In this document: piece by piece, positions 53,127 to 63,062 of the stretch
Layout of the letters: each line of letters opens with the position of its first letter
Numbering within the stretch: position 1 is the first letter of the stretch
NCBI GenBank assembly: GCA_963748625.1
Contig: CAVVJT010000007.1
Span: 224,001-288,000, forward strand
Source of the DNA: an uncultured Chloroflexia bacterium
GTDB lineage: Bacteria > Chloroflexota > Limnocylindria > Limnocylindrales > CSP1-4
DNA length: 64,000 nucleotides
Direction of reading: 5' to 3'
The notes under the pieces: model-generated
What the model was told of the DNA's origin: nothing
The model's database searches: none
Seen by the model: only the letters and a program-made list of their open reading frames with translations
Program-made: the position numbers and the translations under genes

Positions 53127-53984
53127 ATGGCAGAGGCGTCCGCCCCCAAGCGTTCCAAGACCGCGATCCCGCGCAACCCGGGCCGCCATGACCTGGGCAT
53201 GAAGGCGACGCTCCTGTTCCCGGACAAGGACATCGTGGAGCGGTTCTACGTGCCGCTCGTCTACACGGCCTGCCGGACGTGCTACTCGGAGCTGGAGCCG
53301 CAGGAGATCTTCCGCCGGGCGGTGGCGGGTGAGGTCAACCCCGCGTCAATGCAGCGGCTGATCTCCAACGTGATCGAGTCCGGGCACGGCTCCACCATCG
53401 AGCACATCGTCTTCACGTTCGGCATCTCGGGCGTGTCGCGCACGCTCTCGCACCAGCTGGTGCGCCACCGCGCGGGCGTCGCCTTCGACCAGCAGAGCCA
53501 GCGGTACGTCAACTACAAGGCGGCCGCGACCATGCTCCCGGGCACGATCGCGGATGGGGCGCCGGAGCTGCGCTCGGCCTACGAGGACCAGATGGAGGGG
53601 TCGCTGGGCCTGTACGCCACGCTGGTGGAGGCCGGGATCCCGGGTGAGGACGCACGGTTCGTCTTCCCCAACGCCACCCGAACCAACCTCGTGATGACCA
53701 CGAACCTGCGGGCCCTGATCCACATGTCGGGCCTGCGCCTGTGCACGATGGCCCAGTGGGAGATCCGCCGTCTGTTCCAGCTGATCCGCCACGAAATCTT
53801 CACCGTGTCGCCGTTCCTGGGCTCGTTCCTTGCGCCCAAGTGCGTGCCTCTTGGATACTGCGACGAGTTCAACAACCGCGACGGGCACTGCCCTATCCGC
53901 CCCCACAAGGACGCCGTGCTCGAGGCCTGGGCGCAGAAGCGCGAGGCCGCGAAGACCGCCGGGCGGGACCTGCCAGTCACCTGA
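53127..53984 (+). CDS. thyX: FAD-dependent thymidylate synthase
   Basis: GHGSTIEH, HQLVRHR..FDQQSQRY, EDARF and AQWEIR motifs. Confidence 0.95.
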   Translation: MAEASAPKRSKTAIPRNPGRHDLGMKATLLFPDKDIVERFYVPLVYTACRTCYSELEPQEIFRRAVAGEVNPASMQRLISNVIESGHGSTIEHIVFTFGISGVSRTLSHQLVRHRAGVAFDQQSQRYVNYKAAATMLPGTIADGAPELRSAYEDQMEGSLGLYATLVEAGIPGEDARFVFPNATRTNLVMTTNLRALIHMSGLRLCTMAQWEIRRLFQLIRHEIFTVSPFLGSFLAPKCVPLGYCDEFNNRDGHCPIRPHKDAVLEAWAQKREAAKTAGRDLPVT

Positions 53985-54631: not shown

Positions 54632-55501
54632 TCAGTCGGCCTCGAGGCCGGCGATGAACCGGCGGAGCACCTTCGCGAGCCGCGGCCCAGCAGCGGCACC
54701 CGCCTCGAGGACCTCGTCGTGGGCGAGCGGCACGCCCGAGTACCCGGCGCCGGCGTTCGTCACGAGGGACACGCCCGCCACCTCGAGTCCCACCCAGCGT
54801 GCGGCGATCGCCTCGAGCACGGTGGACATGCCCACGGCATCCGCGCCGAGGGTGCGCGCCATCCGGACCTCGGCCGGGGTCTCGTAGTTCGGCCCGAGGA
54901 AGCCCATGTACACGCCCTCGTCGAGCTCGACGCCCTCGGCATCGCCGGCCGCGCGCAGCGCCGCCCGGTGGGCGGGGGTCCACACGTCCGTGAGGTCAAT
55001 GAACCGCTCGCCGAGCTCGTCGGCGTTCGGGCCCATGAGCGGCGAGATCCCGGTGAAGTTGATGTGGTCGCTGATGACCATGAGCGTCCCCGGCCCATAC
55101 GCGGGGTTCGCGCCGCCAGCCGCGTTGGTCAGGATCACGAGGCTCGCGCCCAGCTGCTTGAACAGCAGGACCGGCTGCACCACCAGGCCCGGGGCGTTCC
55201 CCTCGTACACGTGGAAGCGGCCCTGGAGGACCACCACCGGCACGCCGGCCAGGTGGCCGAGCAGCAGACGGCCCGCGTGGCCCGGCGCCGTGGCCACCGG
55301 CCAGCCGGGCAGCGCCTCGAAGGGGATGGCGACCGGATCATCGATCTCGTCGGCGAGGCTGCCGAGGCCGGAGCCGAGCACGATGCCCACGCGCGGCACG
55401 AGGTCCGTGCGGGCTCGCACAGCGGCCACGAGCTCGGCCAGACGGGCGGGCTGCTCGGACGGGGGGATGGGACGGGAGCGATCGACGGCGGTATCGGTCA
55501 T
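54632..55501 (-). CDS. punA: Purine nucleoside phosphorylase (trimeric type)
   Basis: LGSGLG, GHAG, GRFHVYEG, TNAAGG, GPNYETPAE and VGMST motifs. Confidence 0.93.
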   Translation of the reverse strand: MTDTAVDRSRPIPPSEQPARLAELVAAVRARTDLVPRVGIVLGSGLGSLADEIDDPVAIPFEALPGWPVATAPGHAGRLLLGHLAGVPVVVLQGRFHVYEGNAPGLVVQPVLLFKQLGASLVILTNAAGGANPAYGPGTLMVISDHINFTGISPLMGPNADELGERFIDLTDVWTPAHRAALRAAGDAEGVELDEGVYMGFLGPNYETPAEVRMARTLGADAVGMSTVLEAIAARWVGLEVAGVSLVTNAGAGYSGVPLAHDEVLEAGAAAGPRLAKVLRRFIAGLEAD

Positions 55502-55590
55502 GGTGGCGAGGATAGGCGAGCCGGGACCGGTTGCGGAGGGGCTGCGCGCACGGGGCGCCGCACAGCGGGCAGGTGGCGCCGCACGGCGGG

Positions 55591-55878
55591 CACGGGGCCT
55601 TAAACTTCGACGCCCGCCAGGAGTACTGACACCGGGATGCCAGTCGCGTCCTGCCGGGCGCCCAGCCGGCGAGCCCTTTCGGGCCAGCCCGCGCTGGTGA
55701 ACGAAGCGCTCGAAGCTGCCGGGGCACCGGACATGAAGCAAGCTCCCTGTCCCCGGCCTTGATGTGATCGCAGCCGTGGTGCCTGGTGCCGGGCGGTTGA
55801 GGTGATCTCAGCCCGGCCGTCCCGGTTCGGTCTTGAGGCGATCGCCTCCGACCCTGGACTCCGTCGGCCCCTTCGGGC
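55591..55878 (-). ncRNA. Candidate structured non-coding RNA, about 290 nt, family unassigned
   Basis: TTGGAG-17bp-TATCGT promoter (55914-55886); 5'/3' end pairing; GAAA and CUUG tetraloop hairpins and G-U pairs that work on the minus strand; no credible ORF. Confidence 0.62.
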
Positions 55879-55919
55879 AGAACGAACGATAGGGCGGACG
55901 GCGGCCTGCTCCAACGAGG

Positions 55920-55994
55920 TTGTCCACGAACTGCACCCCTGGCAGTGGCGATCCATCCACGTGGTTGCCCGCCGTGTGGACAGCCTGTGGACAG
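55920..55994. promoter_or_regulatory. Cluster of DnaA-box-like 9-mers
   Basis: TTGTCCACG at 55920; TGTGGACAG at 55975 and 55986; weaker CCATCCACG at 55953. Confidence 0.4.
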
Positions 55995-56019
55995 ACGCGG
56001 GCGCCTGTCCGGCGCGCGC

Positions 56020-57096
56020 CTACCCGCCCAGGGCGAACATCTCCACCTTCGGCAGCCGGTCAGTCGCCGCGCTGCGCAACTCGGAGTAGCGGTCCGTGCG
56101 GGTGGCCCAGACAGCGGTCACAAGCGCCGCCAGCTCGTCGTCGGTGGCACCCGCCCGCAGCGGGGCCTTGAGATCGGTCCCGCCGGTCGCGAACAGGCAC
56201 GTGTAGAGGCTGCCCTCCGCTGACAGCCGGGCCCGGGTGCAGTCTCCGCAGAACGGCTGCGACACGGACGCGATGACGCCAACCTCGCCGCGCCCATCAC
56301 GGTAGGCGAACCGGTCGGCAACCTCGCCGCGATAGGACGCGGCGACTGGCTCCAAGGGCATCTCCGCGTCGATCGCGGCCAGGATCTCGTCCATGGGCAC
56401 CACGTCATCGAGGCGCCAGCCGTTGGAGTGGCCCACGTCCATGTACTCGATGAAGCGCAGGGTCACGCCCTCCTCGCGGGCCCAGCGGGCCAGGGGCAGA
56501 ATCGCGTCCTCGTTGAGGTGCCGCCGGATCACCGTGTTGACCTTGACCGGCGCAAGGCCGGCAGACTGAGCCGCGGCGATGCCGTCGAGCACCCGTGCCA
56601 CCGGGAAGTCCACGCCGTTCATCCGTCCGGCCACCTCGTCGTCGAGCGAGTCGAGGCTCACCGTGATGCGCTGCAGACCCGCCTCCGCCAGCGGACCCGC
56701 CAGCTGGCGAAGCGCGGAGCCGTTCGTGGTCAGGGTCAGGTCCACCGGCTCCCCGTCGGTGGTCCGCAGGCCGGCCAGGGACCCGATCAGCACGGGCAGG
56801 TCGCGCCGGACGAGTGGCTCCCCGCCCGTGATCCGCAGCTTGCGCACCCCGAGGCCCGTGAAGACCCCCGCAAGTCGCGTGATCTCCTCGAACGTCAGCA
56901 CCGCCTCGCGCGGCAGGAAGGCGAAGTCCCGTCCGAAGAGCTCGGCCGGCATGCAGTACGGGCACCGGAAGTTGCACCGGTCGGTGACTGAGATCCGCAG
57001 GTCGCGAAGTGCCCGGCCATACCTGTCGGGCAGGCCGGGACGCCCATCGAACGCGGCGTCGGTGGCCTGGGCATCGGGGCGCGGCTGCAGGTGCAC
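56020..57096 (-). CDS. moaA: GTP 3',8-cyclase (molybdenum cofactor biosynthesis)
   Basis: LRISVTDRCNFRCPYC, ITGGEP, FCGDC.R...C motifs; C-terminal GG. Confidence 0.96.
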   Translation of the reverse strand: MHLQPRPDAQATDAAFDGRPGLPDRYGRALRDLRISVTDRCNFRCPYCMPAELFGRDFAFLPREAVLTFEEITRLAGVFTGLGVRKLRITGGEPLVRRDLPVLIGSLAGLRTTDGEPVDLTLTTNGSALRQLAGPLAEAGLQRITVSLDSLDDEVAGRMNGVDFPVARVLDGIAAAQSAGLAPVKVNTVIRRHLNEDAILPLARWAREEGVTLRFIEYMDVGHSNGWRLDDVVPMDEILAAIDAEMPLEPVAASYRGEVADRFAYRDGRGEVGVIASVSQPFCGDCTRARLSAEGSLYTCLFATGGTDLKAPLRAGATDDELAALVTAVWATRTDRYSELRSAATDRLPKVEMFALGG

Positions 57097-57316
57097 ACGA
57101 CCATGGTAGCCGGACGCCGCCAGGGGCAATGCAGCAGGGTTGGCGCATTCCACGAAGACCCTGCCAGGAGCGCCTTACGGCCCGTGGCCGGTGCGCCGGT
57201 ACCACAGTCACCGCGAACCAGTACCTCTAGCGACTGCTCCGCAGCCCACTCGTCCGCCTATGGTGCGTCTACGCCACGGCCCACCGTGAATCCGCCGAAG
57301 GAAGAGTGCCCAGACC

Positions 57317-59110
57317 ATGTCCTCCACCGAGACTCGATCCGGCTTCCGACTCCCCTGGACCTCCGACCGCGCGCACGACGGCCAGCCTGGCGGTGACCCG
57401 ACGGAGCTCGCGGCGGGACCCGCGCCGGATATGGCCCCGGGTGAGGCTGTCTGGCCTGACATCGACGTCAACGCACGCCTTGACATGCAGACCACCCAGC
57501 CCCGCCCGCATGCGCCCCTGCCCGAGGAGCAGCCGCGGGCCGCTGCAGACCAGCCACCCGAGGATCCCGCGCTCCAGGAGCCCGCTATGCCTGCCATCGC
57601 CCCCGTCCCCCCGGCTCCGGTCGCGCCGAGGAGGCCGTCGAAGCTCATGGCAGACCTCTCCGCCGCCATCCGGGCGACGGCGGACGCAGCCCGCATCGAG
57701 GTGCTGGCCGACAACGATGCCGACGTTGCTGCCGTGGTCGCCGAGATCCGCGCCACGTCCAAGGAGGGCGAGATCGTCCTCAAGCACCGGGCAGACGAGG
57801 ATGTCGCGGAGATCCGCGACTGGTCCAAGGCGGAGATCGCGCGCATCAAGGAGGAGACCGAGGCCCGCATCGAGGCTCGCAAGGCGCAGCTCGGCGACGA
57901 GATCGCCGCCCATGCCGCCGCGATCGAGACCCGTGTGGGCGCCGTCGAGAGCCTGGCCGCCTCCTACCGCAACGAGATGGAGGCCTACGCGGAGCGCCTC
58001 GCGCAGGAGGACGACCCTTCCCGCCTGGCCACGATGGCCGAGTCCATGCCTGACGCACCCGAGCTCGCAGGGATCGTCGCCGCCGACCTGGCCGACCTGC
58101 CGCAGCTGCCGGTCAAGGCCGAAGCCGGCACCGTCGACGTGGAGGCCAGCGCCGGGGAAGCCGACGTCGAAGCCGACGTCGAAGCCGCGGGCGAGGCCGA
58201 CGTCGAAGCCGTCGTCGAAGCCGCGGGCGAGGCCGACGTCGAAGCCGACGTCGAAGCCGCGGGCGAGGCCGACGTCGAGGTCGAAGTGGGAGAGGCACCT
58301 GCCCTCGAGGCTGTCGAATCCGACGTCGAGGCTGACGACGAAGCCGACGTCGTCGCGGCAGTGGCCGCAGCGGCTGAGGCCGTCGACCTCGACACCCCCA
58401 CCCACACCGGGGCCCCGTTCGGCTCCCCCACGCCCTGGGCCGTCGGCGACGAGTACCAGCCGCGCGCGGATCACGGCGCGCGGGGCTCTGACGTCCCGCG
58501 CTGGGCCGCCGGCGAGACCGTGAACGACGTTCCGCAGCCTGTCGACGGCAGCGATCCCGTGGATCGTGGCGCGATCATGGCCGCCCTCGAGGCAGCCGCC
58601 GCCGCGGTCGTTGCTGCCGAGTCTGCAGCTGATTCCGCTGACCAGGCCGAGGCCGCAGCCGACGTCGCCGAGACCGCCGCCGAGCTGGTGGTTGGACGCA
58701 CAGGGAGCGGGGACGACCTCGACCCCGAGGCGCAGGCTGCCCTCTCCGCCCGTGTCGACGCAGGTGGCTTCGACACAGAGTCCTTCACCGACCGCCTCGC
58801 CTCGCTCATGCCCGGTCACGATCCGGCCGTGGACGACGGGTCCGTGCACACCACCCAGGTGATCGTGTCCGGCCTCGTCTCGGTCGCCAGCATCGCCAGC
58901 TTCAAGCGCCATCTCGGGCGCATCGCCGGCGTCGACGGTGTCGCGGTGGCGAGCGGACCCGGGGGCGAGTTCGTCTTCAACGTGACGCATCGGGCCGACG
59001 TCTCCTTCCGGGATGCCCTGCCCACGCTGCCGGGCTTCGCGGCCCGCGTGACCAGCACCGGCGATGGCATCGTCACCGTGATGGCGCGCGATCCGGAAGC
59101 GGAGGGCTGA
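57317..59110 (+). CDS. Acidic Ala/Glu-rich coiled-coil protein with a small folded C-terminal domain
   Basis: N-terminal GFRLPW, central heptad-like helix, acidic repeats, C-terminal beta-alpha domain. Confidence 0.8.
   Translation: MSSTETRSGFRLPWTSDRAHDGQPGGDPTELAAGPAPDMAPGEAVWPDIDVNARLDMQTTQPRPHAPLPEEQPRAAADQPPEDPALQEPAMPAIAPVPPAPVAPRRPSKLMADLSAAIRATADAARIEVLADNDADVAAVVAEIRATSKEGEIVLKHRADEDVAEIRDWSKAEIARIKEETEARIEARKAQLGDEIAAHAAAIETRVGAVESLAASYRNEMEAYAERLAQEDDPSRLATMAESMPDAPELAGIVAADLADLPQLPVKAEAGTVDVEASAGEADVEADVEAAGEADVEAVVEAAGEADVEADVEAAGEADVEVEVGEAPALEAVESDVEADDEADVVAAVAAAAEAVDLDTPTHTGAPFGSPTPWAVGDEYQPRADHGARGSDVPRWAAGETVNDVPQPVDGSDPVDRGAIMAALEAAAAAVVAAESAADSADQAEAAADVAETAAELVVGRTGSGDDLDPEAQAALSARVDAGGFDTESFTDRLASLMPGHDPAVDDGSVHTTQVIVSGLVSVASIASFKRHLGRIAGVDGVAVASGPGGEFVFNVTHRADVSFRDALPTLPGFAARVTSTGDGIVTVMARDPEAEG
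58145..58288 (+). repeat. 36-bp coding tandem repeat (EAAGEADVEADV, about 4 copies)
   Basis: GAAGCCGCGGGCGAGGCCGACGTCGAAGCCGACGTC units at 58181, 58217 and 58253. Confidence 0.85.
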
Positions 59111-59115
59111 GTTCC

Positions 59116-60345
59116 ATGGCCACGTCCAAGTCCGGGCCGTCCGTCGCGATCCTGCTGCCCGCCTACGAGGTGGGGCCGGTCGCGACCGAGCTTGCGCATG
59201 GTGGCTTCGATCCGGTGCCGTTCGAGGATGTCCGCGATCTTGCCGCGCTCATCGCTGCCCGCCAGAACGTGGTGGCCGCGGTCCTCGACGCCGACACCGA
59301 CCCCGAGGGCGCCTCGGCAGCCTGGGACCTGCTGCACCGAGACGGGCGCGCGATCCCCTCCCTCATGGTCATCGACCCGGCCACACTCGACCAGTTCGAC
59401 ATGTCGGCGAGCGGGCATGACACCGACGAGTACCTCACGCGGCCGTACTCGGCAGAGTCGATCCGGTGGCGCGTCGAGGCCATGTGCATCCGCTCGGTCG
59501 CCGTCGACGACGGGTCGGGGCCGGTCCTCCAGTCATCCATCGACTCGGGCGACTGGGGCCGCCGCGGTGAGCTCATCGCCGTGTTCAATCCGAAGGGCGG
59601 CGTCGGCAAGACGCTGGTCGCGACGAGCCTCGCTGCCGCGCTGACGGCAGCCGGGAAGCGGGTGCTGCTCATCGATGCCGACACGGTGACCGGCCACGTG
59701 CCCATCTCGCTGGGCATGGACGGTGCACCCACCGTCGTCGACGCCTGGCGCGACGAGCTTGACGGCGGGCCGTCCCTGACCTTCACCGAGATGGCCTCGG
59801 CGCACACGTCCGGACTGCGGATCCTGCCGCTCTCGGACAGCCCGATCCACACCGAGATCCTGGACCCGGACCGCATCTCCTCCGCCATCGCCAGCGCGCG
59901 GCGCAACTTCGACTACGTGATCGCGGACCTGCACCCCTCGTACAGCCCGCTGAACCGCTCGGTCTTCGACAAGGCCGACCGGATCCTGGTCCCGGTGACG
60001 CCGGACCTGCCGGCGATCCGGGCCGTCATGAAGCTGCGCGAGGTGGCGGACGAGCTGGGCATGCGCGACCGCCTCGCGCTCATCGTCAACCGCTTCAACC
60101 ATGGCGTTCCGGTAACCGACATCGAGCATGCCGTGGGGCTCCCCTGCTACGCACAGGTCCGCTCGGCGGGGCCGGTCATCGTCAAGGCCACCAACCAGGG
60201 CCACACCCTCGTTGAGATCGCCCCCAAGGATGCGATCACCGCGGACTTCGCCATCCTCGCCGACCGGATCATGGGACGCGAGGTCGCGAGCGCCGCGAAA
60301 CCCGCCTTCCGGCTCTTCGGCCGGACCGCGGGGGTCAGGGCCTGA
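59116..60345 (+). CDS. CpaE/TadZ-MinD-like ATPase with an N-terminal receiver-like domain
   Basis: Deviant Walker A NPKGGVGKT; LIDAD, DEYLTRP and IVNR motifs. Confidence 0.85.
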   Translation: MATSKSGPSVAILLPAYEVGPVATELAHGGFDPVPFEDVRDLAALIAARQNVVAAVLDADTDPEGASAAWDLLHRDGRAIPSLMVIDPATLDQFDMSASGHDTDEYLTRPYSAESIRWRVEAMCIRSVAVDDGSGPVLQSSIDSGDWGRRGELIAVFNPKGGVGKTLVATSLAAALTAAGKRVLLIDADTVTGHVPISLGMDGAPTVVDAWRDELDGGPSLTFTEMASAHTSGLRILPLSDSPIHTEILDPDRISSAIASARRNFDYVIADLHPSYSPLNRSVFDKADRILVPVTPDLPAIRAVMKLREVADELGMRDRLALIVNRFNHGVPVTDIEHAVGLPCYAQVRSAGPVIVKATNQGHTLVEIAPKDAITADFAILADRIMGREVASAAKPAFRLFGRTAGVRA

Positions 60346-61046: not shown

Positions 61047-63014
61047 TCAATCCTCCGCTCTGCCGGTGTTGCCCTTGATGGTATCCACAACGGTGGCGTC
61101 AGCCAGCGTCGTCACGTCACCGAGCGATCGGCCCTCGGCGATGTCGCGCAGCAGGCGGCGCATGATCTTGCCTGAGCGGGTCTTGGGCAGGTCGGGCACG
61201 AACAGGAGGAACTTGGGCCGCGCGATTGGCCCGATCACGTAGGCAACGTGCTCCCGGAGCTGGGTGGCCAGCTCGTCGGACGGCGCCTGGCCGGACTTGA
61301 GGATCACGAACGCGAAGATCGCCTGGCCGGTGATGGCGTCGCTCTTGCCCACCACCGCCGCCTCTGCGACGGACTGGTGGTCCACCAGGGCGGACTCCAC
61401 CTCCGTGGTGGAGATCCGGTGGCCGGCGATGTTCATCACGTCGTCCACGCGGCCCAGCAGCCAGAGGTAGCCCTCGTCGTCCTTCTTGGCGCCGTCGCCT
61501 GCGAAGTACATGCCCGGGAACCGGCTCCAGTAGGTCTGCATGTACCGTTCCGGATCACCGTAGATGCCGCGGAGCATGCCGGGCCACGGCCGCTTGAGGA
61601 CAAGAAAGCCGCCGGAGCCCAGCGGAACGGACTCGCCCTGCGCATCGACGACGTCGGCCTCGACGCCCGGCAGCGGGAAGGTCGCGGAGCCCGGCTTGGT
61701 GGTGGTGACGCCCGGCAGCGGGCTGATCATGATCTGGCCGGTCTCGGTCTGCCACCAGGTGTCCACCACCGGGGTGGTGCCGCCCCCGATGACGTCCTTG
61801 TACCAGCGCCAGGCCTCGGGGTTGATCGGCTCGCCCACAGAACCCAGCACCCGCAGGCTGGACAGGTCGTGTGCCGCCGGGATCTCCTCGCCCTGCTTCA
61901 TGAACGCGCGGATGGCCGTGGGGGCGCAGTAGAGGATCGAGACCTTGAGGTCCTCGATGATCTGCCACCAGCGATGCCAGTCCGGCGCGTCGGGGGCACC
62001 CTCGTACAGCACGCCGGTGGTCGCGTTGGCCAATGGCCCGTAGACGATGTAGCTGTGCCCGGTGACCCAGCCGATGTCGGCCGCACACCAGTAGACGTCG
62101 TCAGGCTTGATGTCGAACACGGCCCAGTGCGTGAACGCGGCGCCCAGCAGGTAGCCCGCGCTCGTGTGCAGGATCCCCTTGGGCTTCGCGGTGGTCCCCG
62201 ACGTGTAGAGCAGATACAGCATCTGCTCGCTGTCCACCGGCACGGGCGGGCAGACGTCCGACTGGCGGCCCACGATGTCGTGCCACCAGTGGTCGCGACC
62301 CTCGACCATGTGGGCGCCATCACCGAAGCGGTCCACCACGAGCATCGCGGTCACCGTGGGCGTGTTGACCACGGCCTCGTCGGCATGATGCTTGAGGCCC
62401 ACCTTCCTGCCGCGCCGCCAGCCACCGTCCGCGGTGATGACCACCTTGGCGCCGCAGTCGTTGATGCGGTCGCTCAACGCCTCGGCCGAGAATCCGCCGA
62501 AGACCACCGTGTGCGCGGCGCCGATCCGGGCGCAGGCAAGCATCGCGATCGGAAGCTCCGGGATCATCGGCATGTAGATCGCGACCCGGTCGCCCTTGCC
62601 AACACCCAGCTCCCGGAGGGCGTTGGCGGCCTTGGAGGTCTCGCGCTGCAGGTCCGCGTAGGTGAGCGTCCGGGTGTCGCCGGGCTCGCCGATCCAGTGA
62701 TACGCGACCTTGTCGCCGAGGCCCCGCTCCACGTGCCGGTCCACGCAGTTGTAGGTGACGTTCAGCTCGCCGCCCTTGAACCATTCTGCGTTGGGCAGGT
62801 TCCACTCGAGGGTCTGGTCGAACGGCGTGTACCAGGAGAGCCGTTCCCGGGCGAGCCGTCCCCAGAAGCCGACCGGGTCGGCGCCGGCCTCGTCATACAG
62901 CGCCGCCGTGGCGTTCGCCTGGGCGGTGAAGGCCGCGTCCGGCGCGAACTTCCGGGTCTCGGCGAGGAGGTTCTCGATCGCAGGCCCGCCCTGGGCCTCG
63001 GGGTCGACGGACAC
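61047..63014 (-). CDS. acs: Acetyl-CoA synthetase
   Basis: [36 protein letters not shown] and [11 protein letters not shown] motifs. Confidence 0.97.
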
Positions 63015-63062
63015 GGAATCCTCCAGTGGCGCTCGTGGGTCGCGCAATGATAGTCGGGCAGT

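What the first reader, a model, noticed from the sequence alone, without database searches (positions are those of the whole stretch)
55591..55914. Unannotated structured RNA of about 290 nt with its own sigma70 promoter
Seen on the minus strand: TTGGAG-17-TATCGT, predicting a start near 55878. The 5' GGGGCC and CGACG pair with 3' GGCCCC and CGUCG around an AAGUUUAA bulge. Internal hairpins are GAGGCG-AU-CGCCUC, GCCGGGC..GCCCGGC, GCCGGGG-ACA-GGGAG-CUUG-CUUC-AUGUCC..CCCCGGC, GCCC-GAAA-GGGC and CUGGCAUC..GGUGUCAG. The G-U pairs and stable tetraloops favour this strand. It lacks the signatures of tmRNA, RNase P, SRP and the common riboswitches. Inference: a stand-alone ncRNA. Its size, closed ends and nearby acs and CpaE-like genes loosely recall actinobacterial Ms1, which binds RNA polymerase (recalled, not verified). 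It could be an Ms1/6S analogue or a new class.
Basis: partly seen in the sequence, partly recalled or inferred. Interest (0 to 1): 0.8.

Follow-up and report, generated by a model that had tools for sequence, protein, structure and literature searches.

The report
New structured RNA upstream of punA
This is a real, conserved, roughly 280-base non-coding RNA from an uncultured Chloroflexota lineage, and it belongs to an undescribed family of small hairpin RNAs whose promoters carry sites resembling those bound by the replication initiator DnaA; it is not the actinobacterial Ms1 RNA.

Summary
The RNA is real. On the minus strand, from about 55879 to about 55598, lies a conserved non-coding element with a conserved promoter.

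- **Conservation:** it was found in 24 of 24 same-genus genomes and 144 of 200 family genomes.
- **Structure:** in the consensus fold 97.7% of cells pair, 16 pairs show compensatory changes, and 0 of 500 shuffles reach this. Folding is strand-specific.
most of its hairpins hold, but its 5'/3' closing helix does not (74.9% paired). The 5' end instead pairs with an internal CUUCGRGC segment.
- **Not Ms1:** the closest records are Chloroflexota/Limnocylindrales genomes, the flanks are moaA and punA, and no Rfam family matches.
- **What it is:** the enlarged, punA-linked member of a new class-wide family. Members share a promoter with DnaA-box-like sites, a clamp between the two RNA ends followed by a U-rich tail, and hairpins with the loop GAGAUCAC(A/C)UCAA.
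- **Link to punA:** in 57 of 110 loci the RNA leads into punA with the ribosome-binding site masked. In 41 loci, including this genus, punA has its own leaderless promoter, so here the RNA is probably free-standing.

Its partner and function are unknown.

The parts
55598..55879 (-). The whole conserved RNA, about 280 nt. The 5' end is UGCCCGAAGGGGCC and the 3' end is GAAGUUUAAGG.
   Evidence: The conserved block is bounded in the 23-sequence alignment and in A1. Folding z is -3.38. Metatranscriptome contigs of 155-377 nt lie only within 55600-55896.
55909..55914 (-). -35 element TTGGAG
   Evidence: TTG stands at this position in 100 of 102 loci.
55886..55891 (-). -10 element TATCGT (TAnnnT type), 6-7 nt before the conserved RNA 5' end
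   Evidence: It was a selection criterion.
55986..55993 (-). DnaA-box-like site 1 (TGTCCACA)
   Evidence: All four boxes are present at fixed positions in 101 of 102 loci.
55975..55982 (-). DnaA-box-like site 2 (TGTCCACA)
55952..55960 (-). DnaA-box-like site 3, inverted (GTGGATGGA)
55919..55927 (-). DnaA-box-like site 4, inverted, 4 nt upstream of the -35 (GTGGACAAC, the reverse complement of GTTGTCCAC)
   Evidence: The same arrangement stands at three other promoters of this genome.
55867..55878 (-). P1 clamp, 5' strand (GCCCGAAGGGGC)
   Evidence: It pairs with 55708-55719. Helix 1 is 95.5% paired and 3 of its pairs have compensatory changes.
55708..55719 (-). P1 clamp, 3' strand (GCAGCUUCGAGC). 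The window has one C-A mismatch.
55824..55854 (-). Hairpin 1, with apical GGAGGCGAUCGCCUCAA at 55833-55849
   Evidence: The stem covaries (GC, AU and CG types; helix 3).
55784..55817 (-). Hairpin 2, with loop GAGAUCACCUCAA at 55797-55809
   Evidence: Helices 5-7. Nine nt of the loop are identical to the 16S rRNA 3' end.
55755..55775 (-). Hairpin 3, with loop GCGAUCACAUCAA at 55759-55771
   Evidence: Helix 8; 2 of its 4 pairs have compensatory changes.
55718..55757 (-). Extra hairpin specific to the window sequence; it contains a 23-nt insertion.
   Evidence: It is present in 1 of 22 genus sequences.
55703..55707 (-). P2 5' strand (GCUUC). It is also the U-rich tail that follows P1.
   Evidence: Helix 10 (99.1% paired). 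U-rich tails are counted.
55671..55686 (-). P3 hairpin with a GNRA loop (GCCC-GAAA-GGGC)
   Evidence: Helix 11
55609..55662 (-). P4 long hairpin with the invariant apex GGCAUCCCGGUGUC
   Evidence: Helices 12-13 (99-100% paired, 4 pairs compensatory). Model R1 finds one copy per genome.
55604..55608 (-). P2 3' strand (GAAGU), followed by UUUAAGG
55509..55514 (-). -10 (TATCCT) of a separate, leaderless punA promoter, 7 nt before the ATG at 55501
   Evidence: It is the only conserved motif in an otherwise variable spacer. The leaderless type is found in 41 of 110 loci.
54632..55501 (-). punA (purine nucleoside phosphorylase), the gene always found downstream
   Evidence: Pfam PNP_UDP_1, E 1.2e-47. 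It lies downstream in 110 of 112 testable loci.
56020..57153 (-). moaA-like gene upstream
   Evidence: Pfam Radical_SAM plus Mob_synth_C

Best explanation
**What it is (shown).** The element is a non-coding RNA of about 280 nt. It is the enlarged, punA-linked member of a previously undescribed family of small hairpin RNAs in the class Limnocylindria (Chloroflexota). Family members share these features:
- a promoter whose -35 is preceded by a DnaA-box-like site, with two or three more boxes upstream;
- a 5' end reading UGCCCGAAGGGGCC;
- a clamp (P1) in which that 5' end pairs with GGUYNCUUCGGGC, directly followed by a U-rich tail, which resembles an intrinsic terminator;
- one or more enclosed hairpins, whose apical loop reads GAGAUCAC(A/C)UCAA in the punA-linked and second-class copies (other siblings carry a related apex).

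The window's copy has three such hairpins. It runs on through the U-rich tail into a second domain (P2, P3, P4) that exists only at the punA locus.

**How it works (inferred).**
- Transcription is set by the protein that binds the boxes, most likely DnaA.
- The clamp and tail act as a leaky stop.
- The repeated loops are binding sites for an unidentified partner.
- The RNA is coupled in cis to punA.

In most genera the transcript continues into punA, whose ribosome-binding site is locked in a conserved helix. In the window's genus punA has its own leaderless promoter, so the RNA probably ends near 55598 as a free-standing transcript. Any effect on punA would then come through tandem transcription or act in trans.
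For: - **Conservation:** 24 of 24 same-genus genomes. 144 of 200 family genomes and 43 of 49 genera (two of the 144, G177 and G231, are unpublished genomes).
- **Structure:** A1 is 97.7% paired, with 16 compensatory pairs and 0 of 500 shuffles; slid controls give 34-48%. A2 is 96.7% paired, with 14 compensatory pairs and 0 of 500 shuffles.
- **Strand:** z is -3.38 on the minus strand against -0.80 on the plus strand. Antisense model hits score 22-35 bits against 26-103 on the sense strand (66-103 for the punA-linked copies).
- **Promoter boxes:** all four are present in 101 of 102 loci. The same RTCCAC core occurs in a 7-box cluster next to dnaA.
- **Siblings:** they share the promoter type, P1 and the tail. 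There are four more in this genome. 36 of 39 family genomes have hits, mostly 2-5 each. In other families of the class, f3 has 12 of 13 genomes and f46 has 2 of 12.
- **U-rich tail:** a mean of 4.6 T in 9 nt across 41 of 41 sense hits, against 14.4% T genome-wide.
- **punA link:** punA lies within 450 nt downstream in 110 of 112 testable loci. Of these, 57 have a ribosome-binding site (mostly inside a conserved helix), 41 are leaderless and 12 are unclear.
- **Copy number:** the 3' domain occurs once per genome.
- **Expression:** RNA-library contigs from 3 studies cover only 55600-55896, one of them identical over 158 nt.
Against: - No experiment shows a transcript end, a binding partner or any effect on punA.
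- The contigs cannot show strand or ends. One extends upstream of the predicted start, so DNA carry-over is possible.
- That DnaA binds the boxes rests only on motif likeness.
- Where punA is leaderless (as here), masking of the ribosome-binding site cannot operate, so the cis link in this genus is conjecture.
- Several siblings are followed by convergent genes or stand in tandem arrays. That fits trans-acting small RNAs better than leaders.
- P1, P2 and the P4 apex hardly vary in sequence, so much of their pairing is uninformative.
- Loci L061-L140 were retrieved by an exact match to the P4 apex, so its invariance there is by construction.
- The terminator role of P1 plus tail is inferred from shape alone.
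Confidence: 0.5

Rival explanations
1. It is a purely trans-acting small RNA, one of a set of sibling RNAs. The repeated GAGAUCAC(A/C)UCAA loops either soak up a protein or pair with target RNAs. Adjacency to punA reflects only inherited gene order and a shared promoter.
For: - Family members have their own promoter and a terminator-like end.
- Some stand in tandem arrays or before convergent genes.
- The number of loops varies from 1 to 5 per RNA, as in multivalent sponge RNAs.
- 41 of 110 loci have an independent leaderless punA promoter.
- The loop shares 9 nt with the 16S rRNA 3' end.
Against: - RNA-punA adjacency is tighter (110 of 112 loci) than moaA-RNA adjacency (59 of 80).
- In 57 loci punA has no room for a promoter of its own, and its ribosome-binding site lies in a conserved helix right after the RNA.
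- No Hfq, CsrA or ProQ was found in the genome.
- No target or partner is known.
Confidence: 0.25
2. It is a metabolite-sensing riboswitch. The 3' domain (the P2-P3-P4 junction) binds a small molecule of purine nucleoside metabolism and opens or closes the helix that masks the punA ribosome-binding site.
For: - There is one copy per genome, always before punA.
- The 3' domain is a three-way junction with an invariant core.
- The helix sequestering the ribosome-binding site shows compensatory variants between genera.
Against: - No known riboswitch class matches.
- The domain is kept intact in 41 loci where there is no ribosome-binding site to mask.
- It is missing before punA in genera g16 and g47.
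- Invariant helix sequences suggest recognition by a macromolecule.
- It is restricted to one family: 2 of 3 f1 genomes, and 0 of 147 genomes of the other families in the phylum sample.
- No alternative pairing with covariation was found.
Confidence: 0.12
3. It is an Ms1- or 6S-like RNA that binds RNA polymerase.
For: - Its size is similar to Ms1 (about 300 nt according to PMC9130861, passages read).
- No canonical 6S RNA was found in this genome.
- It appears abundant relative to its flanks in RNA libraries (weak).
Against: - The host is Chloroflexota.
- There is no Ms1-type synteny.
- There is no Rfam match at E up to 10.
- The fold is not a rod with a central bubble.
- The 6S model rings in only 5 of 14 control genomes, so its silence here says little.
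Confidence: 0.04
4. It is mainly a DNA-level element, such as a DnaA-titrating box cluster or a repeated intergenic cassette, and the RNA fold is incidental.
For: - Four invariant DnaA-box-like sites are present.
- Similar cassettes occur at several loci per genome.
- The sequence-invariant P1 could equally be an inverted DNA repeat.
Against: - Compensatory changes occur in 16 pairs.
- Conserved G-U pairs exist only on the minus strand: columns 252/263 and 255/260 in 22 of 22 sequences.
- Folding and model scores are strand-asymmetric.
- A conserved -10 stands at a fixed distance from the RNA's 5' end.
- RNA-library contigs cover the region.
Confidence: 0.05

Closest known systems
Ms1 RNA of Actinobacteria (MTS2823 / scr3559)
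   Same: It is a non-coding RNA of roughly 250-300 nt in a GC-rich bacterium, with its own promoter. A CpaE-like gene and acs lie a few kb away in the window.
   Different: The phylum differs. The flanks are moaA and punA, not HAD-IB/CpaE and an oxidoreductase (PMC9130861 sections 7 and 22). There is no Rfam match. The fold is branched and two-domain rather than a rod with a bubble. RNA polymerase binding is untested.
6S RNA (RF00013)
   Same: It is a housekeeping-size structured RNA, and no canonical 6S was found in this genome.
   Different: There is no model match, no long rod with a central bubble, and it occurs as part of a multi-copy family.
CsrB / RsmX/Y/Z-type multi-hairpin sponge RNAs
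   Same: It has a variable number (1-5) of hairpins with the same apical motif, a dedicated upstream activator-type site at the promoter, and a terminator at the end.
   Different: The loop motif is GAGAUCACAUCAA, not GGA. No CsrA gene was found. The partner is unknown, and the RNA is tightly linked in cis to one gene.
Riboswitch and leader RNAs of purine genes (for example the purine riboswitch class)
   Same: In 57 of 110 loci it lies in the 5' untranslated region of a purine salvage gene, with the ribosome-binding site in a conserved helix.
   Different: No sequence or structure match to any Rfam riboswitch. It is retained where punA has its own promoter. It carries repeated hairpins and shares its 5' module with unrelated genes.
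Sibling small-RNA families with a dedicated promoter motif, such as NsiR1 tandem arrays in cyanobacteria or Qrr RNAs (recalled, not checked here)
   Same: There are several paralogous copies per genome, some in tandem, each with the same special promoter element and its own terminator-like end.
   Different: The shared parts are the ends and an apical loop rather than a proven seed. The promoter element resembles DnaA boxes.

Membership tests
Ms1 RNA | The host is an actinobacterium. | tested here: not met
   77 of the 80 loci listed for an exact 19-nt motif of this RNA carry further features of it. Nearly all are titled Chloroflexota, Chloroflexia or Candidatus Limnocylindrales/Limnocylindria, and a few bear other labels. 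The lineage is given. Flank proteins are 62-83% identical to the window's.
Ms1 RNA | It lies between a HAD-IB hydrolase/CpaE-type gene and an oxidoreductase-type gene (PMC9130861, Tables 1-3, read). | tested here: not met
   The flanks are moaA-like and punA, and this is conserved. The CpaE-like gene at 59116-60345 is two genes away.
Ms1 RNA | It matches the Rfam Ms1 model or Ms1 sequences. | tested here: not met
   There are 0 Rfam matches at E up to 10. Caveat: the paper says Rfam finds Ms1 only in close relatives of mycobacteria. The Ms1 candidate lists are in supplements I could not see.
Ms1 RNA | It has a 6S-like rod with a central bubble plus short terminal hairpins. | tested here: not met
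   The consensus is a P1-closed multi-hairpin domain plus a three-way-junction domain.
Ms1 RNA | It binds the RNA polymerase core and accumulates in stationary phase. | not testable with these tools
   None
6S RNA | It matches RF00013 and forms a rod with a central bubble. | tested here: not met
   (0 matches); fold
Metabolite riboswitch (generic) | It lies in the 5' untranslated region of the regulated gene, with an expression platform. | tested here: inconclusive
   This is met in 57 of 110 loci (masking helix). It is not met in 41 loci, including the window's genus (leaderless punA).
Metabolite riboswitch (generic) | It binds a small-molecule ligand specifically. | not testable with these tools
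   None
CsrB/Rsm-type sponge RNA | It has repeated GGA-loop hairpins and a CsrA/RsmA partner. | tested here: not met
   The loops read GAGAUCAC(A/C)UCAA. No CsrA was found.
Intrinsic-terminator-ended small RNA | A GC-rich stem is directly followed by a U-rich tract. | tested here: inconclusive
   P1 is followed by 3-6 T in 9 nt in 41 of 41 sense hits. However, the stem is long-range, the generic scan finds no terminator, and RNA contigs cross this point in the window's species.
DnaA-regulated promoter | Boxes matching TTATCCACA stand at the promoter and are bound by DnaA. | tested here: inconclusive
   Boxes with 7-8 of 9 matches to the recalled consensus are conserved in 101 of 102 loci. The same core clusters beside dnaA. 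Binding was not testable.

The most novel reading that the evidence does not exclude
Limnocylindria carry a class-wide network of sibling hairpin RNAs driven by DnaA-box promoters. The network ties the state of the replication initiator to nucleotide salvage (punA), a NUDIX hydrolase and other genes. The RNAs' invariant loop is nearly identical to the 16S rRNA 3' end. It could act as a decoy for a factor that recognises that end, or for Shine-Dalgarno sequences. This would be a link between replication and translation with no described counterpart.
Probability: 0.12. Interest if true: 0.85.

Novelty: new variant of a known kind. Interest (0 to 1): 0.65.

Why it matters
Limnocylindria are abundant, essentially uncultured soil and freshwater Chloroflexota. 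I found no paper on their non-coding RNAs.

This finding gives a well-supported new RNA family with clear anatomy:
- a shared promoter with conserved DnaA-box-like sites;
- an end-to-end clamp with a U-rich tail;
- an invariant loop present in 1-5 copies;
- at one locus, an added domain and a masked ribosome-binding site in front of a purine salvage gene.

If the boxes are true DnaA sites, this would be a set of RNAs under control of the replication initiator. That makes a link between replication status and nucleotide supply directly testable.

It also shows that the Ms1 lead, based on recalled synteny, was misleading because the organism is not an actinobacterium.

Tried and rejected
- **Rfam.** The whole window at gathering scores, the region at E up to 10 and four sibling loci gave only three chance-level hits (E 2-9.5).
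- **Generic promoter/terminator scan.** Nothing was found; the promoter is supported by conservation instead.
- **Protein-coding reading.** The 118-aa frame at 55600-55956 has no Pfam hit. Indels of 1, 2, 4 and 23 nt between close relatives break any frame. Open frames are uninformative at 71% GC.
Rejected.
- **Kissing between the GAUCAC loop and GUGAUC in P4.** The variable positions do not covary, and they pair within P4 instead (alignments).
- **Kissing between the loop (GAGAU) and the P3 loop (GUCUC).** The P3 loop is not conserved; it is a GNRA loop in this genus.
- **Likeness of P4 to the ZTP riboswitch.** This was recalled only; there is no Rfam support.
- **6S, Hfq, CsrA, ProQ.** No hits in the genome. 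The genome is 98.3% complete, and the controls ring in few reference genomes.
- **Model R2.** It does not recover the window's own three-hairpin copy, so copy counts from it are lower bounds.
- **Parts of the window without RNA-contig cover** (punA, moaA). This is not evidence that they are silent.
- **Literature.** Searches found nothing relevant. In one search all 10 papers listed, of 75 that hold a term, use the strings as eukaryotic primers.
Full report
**1. The observation**

The minus strand of 55300-56200 contains TTGGAG (55914-55909), a 17-nt spacer and TATCGT (55891-55886). UGCCCGAAGGGGCC follows from 55879.

The region lies in a 520-nt gap between two genes:
- a moaA-like gene at 56020-57153 (Radical_SAM plus Mob_synth_C);
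- punA at 54632-55501 (PNP_UDP_1, E 1.2e-47).

The 290-nt minus strand folds to -154.3 kcal/mol, z -3.38, with 0 of 200 shuffles as good. The plus strand gives z -0.80, with 41 of 200 as good. A generic consensus scan called no promoter or terminator.

No Rfam family matches. The whole window at gathering scores gave 0, and 55400-56100 at E up to 10 gave 0.

A 118-codon frame overlaps the element. It has no Pfam hit, and indels of 1, 2, 4 and 23 nt between close relatives break it.

**2. Conservation and structure in the genus**

A DNA search of relatives found the element in 24 of 24 same-genus genomes. It found 0 of 16 in a sister family of about 1.1-Mb genomes.

In 23 aligned intergenic regions:
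- conservation begins about 115 nt upstream of the predicted start;
- it covers the promoter and the RNA;
- it stops abruptly after GAAGUUUAAGG (about 55598);
- the spacer down to punA is unalignable, except for CTATCCTC 6-7 nt before the ATG.

RNAalifold on 22 RNAs (A1) gives 68 pairs. Counted independently, 97.7% of cells pair, 16 pairs have changes on both sides (67 cells), and 0 of 500 shuffles reach any of the five measures. Slid controls give 34-48%.

The fold has two domains:
- **5' domain.** The 5' end (55878-55867) pairs with 55719-55708 (P1). P1 encloses three hairpins whose apical loops read GGAGGCGAUCGCCUCAA, GAGAUCACCUCAA and GCGAUCACAUCAA.
- **3' domain.** P2 (55707-55703 with 55608-55604) encloses a GNRA-capped P3 and a long P4 with an invariant apex.

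GGGGCC/GGCCCC pairs in 62.6% of cells, and 26 of 500 shuffles do as well. It also competes with P4.

**3. Who carries it**

In the family the element matched in 144 of 200 genomes and 43 of 49 genera. Two of the 144, G177 and G231, are unpublished genomes; nothing else in this report rests on them.

Nearly all of the 80 loci listed are titled Chloroflexota, Chloroflexia or Candidatus Limnocylindrales/Limnocylindria, and a few bear other labels (lineage). Of these, 77 of 80 carry further features of the RNA and 3 look like chance hits. Their moaA and PNP proteins are 62-83% identical to the window's.

The organism is therefore a Chloroflexota of the class Limnocylindria, not an actinobacterium.

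A covariance model of the 3' domain (R1) finds one copy in the window's genome at 89.2 bits. In a sample of 150 genomes of the phylum it finds the domain only in the window's family: 2 of 3 there, 0 of 10 in another family of the class, and 0 in the rest.

**4. Relation to punA**

PNP lies downstream on the same strand within 400 nt in 72 of 80 loci. moaA lies within 900 nt upstream in 59 of 80.

Among 122 non-redundant loci:

| Situation | Loci |
|---|---|
| punA within 450 nt | 110 |
| punA further away | 2 |
| No PNP match in the held DNA (locus ends or chance hits) | 10 |

Of the 110:

| Type | Loci |
|---|---|
| Shine-Dalgarno sequence present | 57 |
| No Shine-Dalgarno; TAnnnT 5-8 nt before the ATG/GTG (leaderless mRNA with its own promoter) | 41 |
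| Unclear | 12 |

Where a Shine-Dalgarno sequence is present, it is mostly GGAGGCCCGC. It stands 5-6 nt before the start codon and 64-73 nt after P4, inside a conserved helix (GGCCUCG with YGGAGGCC). That helix pairs in 95.5% of cells in A2. Other genera show different but still complementary arms.

The leaderless type includes every testable member of the window's genus. In two genera (g16, g47) punA is preceded by the 5' domain alone.

So in most genera the RNA is the punA leader. In the window's genus it is probably a separate transcript.

**5. A family of RNAs**

The promoter and the first roughly 40 nt of the RNA also match a second place in most genomes.

In the window's genome, four promoters have the following layout:
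- a DnaA-box-like site (GTGGAYAAS) three to four bases upstream of the TTG of the -35;
- then TAnnnT;
- then GYCCGAAGGGGC 6-7 nt later (4 of 6 matches to that pattern).

Each RNA ends with GGUUCCUUCGGRY, complementary to its own 5' end. These stand before:
- punA;
- a NUDIX gene (E 1.2e-12);
- an Rce1-like/CPBP gene (E 4.7e-17);
- a leaderless 255-codon frame with no Pfam family.

A fifth copy has an ordinary TTGACA promoter and no co-oriented gene.

A model of the one-hairpin 5' domain (R2) finds hits in 36 of 39 family genomes that are at least 90% complete, mostly 2-5 per genome. It also finds hits in other families of the class: f3 12 of 13, f46 2 of 12, f2 0 of 1, f47 0 of 1. Inspected examples have the same boxes, clamp, loop and tail.

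Further points on the family:
- Some copies stand in tandem arrays or before convergent genes.
- Directly after the clamp come 3-6 T in 9 nt in 41 of 41 sense hits (mean 4.6), in a genome with 14.4% T. The RNA's two ends thus form something shaped like an intrinsic terminator.
- In the punA copy this U-rich stretch is also the 5' strand of P2.
- Antisense hits of the model score 22-35 bits against 26-103 for the sense strand, and 66-103 for the punA-linked copies.

**6. The boxes**

Upstream of the punA-linked RNA, four sites stand at fixed positions in 101 of 102 non-redundant loci. Two are direct TGTCCACA-type sites and two are inverted GTGGAY sites, the last reading TT(A/G)TCCAC on the other strand.

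They match the DnaA-box consensus TTATCCACA/TTGTCCACA in 7-8 of 9 positions. That consensus is recalled, not taken from a call.

dnaA lies at G000:C7:1162392. Just downstream of it is a cluster of 7 sites with the same RTCCAC core, followed by an AT-rich stretch. This looks like an origin and supports the reading that this core is the organism's DnaA box. Binding itself is untested.

**7. Expression**

Four metatranscriptomic runs from 3 studies (freshwater, riverine, biofilm) hold short contigs of 155-377 nt.
- All but one lie within 55600-55896; one low-depth piece (2.2) touches 56014-56048 at the very end of moaA. None lie on punA.
- One is identical over 158 nt (55643-55800), and another differs at 1 of 155 positions.
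- Contigs cross the P1/U-rich point near 55700.

Contigs give no strand and no ends. One contig from a relative runs 23 nt upstream of the -10 and 67 nt past the 3' end, so DNA carry-over or read-through cannot be excluded. This is weak support for an abundant transcript.

**8. Mechanism**

Shown:
- a conserved, strand-specific, covarying RNA with a conserved promoter;
- a modular family;
- a tight link to punA, in two architectures.

Inferred:
- the boxes are DnaA sites;
- P1 with its tail is a leaky terminator;
- the invariant loops bind an unknown partner;
- in leader-type loci, translation of punA is gated by the masking helix.

No Hfq, CsrA or ProQ gene and no 6S RNA were found.

The loop of hairpin 2 shares 9 nt (GAUCACCUC) with the 16S rRNA 3' end of this genome. 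In other genera the loop differs from it at one position. This may be chance.

I put 0.5 on the composite reading, in which the RNA is a cis-coupled regulatory RNA of a new family and is free-standing in this genus. The rivals are a purely trans-acting RNA (0.25), a metabolite riboswitch (0.12), a DNA-level element (0.05) and an Ms1/6S-like RNA (0.04).

**9. Comparison with known systems, and novelty**

Ms1 was tested on host, synteny, model match and fold, and fails all four. I read the outline, sections 7 and 22 and searched passages of PMC9130861. PMC4191392 and PMC11077062 were seen only in the search listing. The supplementary Ms1 lists could not be seen.

The element resembles Csr/Rsm-type sponges in its repeated loops and special promoter. 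It resembles purine-gene leaders in its position. It is a member of neither.

Three literature searches found no description of it:
- punA, riboswitch, motif and Chloroflexi. None of the 14 listed papers that mention Chloroflexi holds 'punA', and the single listed paper that does is a Bacillus thuringiensis study unrelated to this RNA.
- Limnocylindria plus noncoding RNA, 0 papers;
- the loop strings, primer contexts only among the 10 listed.

**Limits**
- Loci L061-L140 were gathered by an exact match to the P4 apex.
- A2 was picked by motif filters.
- A5 is fitted to the model.
- Related genomes are not independent.

Noticed in passing
window 55919-55993 (minus strand): Four DnaA-box-like sites sit at fixed positions upstream of the RNA promoter. 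All four are conserved in 101 of 102 non-redundant loci.
   Followed up: partly
G000:C7:1163820-1164090 (outside the window): A cluster of 7 RTCCAC sites followed by an AT-rich stretch lies just downstream of dnaA. It is a likely replication origin and has the same box core as the RNA promoters.
   Followed up: partly
G000:C3:102438, C4:514310, C10:1155743, C10:1175143 (outside the window): Four sibling RNAs share the 5' UGCCCGAAGGGGC, the complementary 3' end and the U-rich tail. They stand before an Rce1-like/CPBP gene, a NUDIX gene and a leaderless 255-codon frame with no Pfam family; the fourth is stand-alone.
   Followed up: partly
L223 (G067:C1:2283516-2287701), L224, L229: Sibling RNA genes stand in tandem arrays of two or three, each with its own box-bearing promoter. 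Their apical motifs are related, such as GGUGCUUGCAUCGG.
   Followed up: no
window 55499-55514: punA appears to be a leaderless mRNA. A TATCCT -10 stands 7 nt before the ATG, and there is no Shine-Dalgarno sequence. The same is true across the genus.
   Followed up: partly
window 55797-55809; G000:C10:688502 (minus strand): The loop of hairpin 2 (GAUCACCUC) is identical over 9 nt to the 16S rRNA 3' end, GGAUCACCUCCUUUCU. Hairpin 1 pairs a GGAGG with a CCUC.
   Followed up: partly
window 55609-55662 compared with 55867-55878 and 55708-55719: The base of P4 (GCCCGRCGG / CCGYCGGGC) looks like a diverged copy of the P1 clamp (GCCCGAAGG / CCUUCGGGC). The 3' domain may therefore be a fused second family member (by eye).
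   Followed up: no
L208, L210 (genus g16) and L212 (genus g47): In these genera punA is preceded by the 5' hairpin module only, without the 3' domain.
   Followed up: no
window 57269-58990 (minus strand) and 59116-60345 (plus strand): A 573-codon frame with no Pfam family above cut-off lies beside a CpaE/ParA-like ATPase gene. acs is at 61047-63047 and thyX at 53127-53984.
   Followed up: no
L007, L010, L012, L016, L020: In five genus members about 1 kb is inserted between moaA and the RNA, while RNA-punA adjacency is kept.
   Followed up: no
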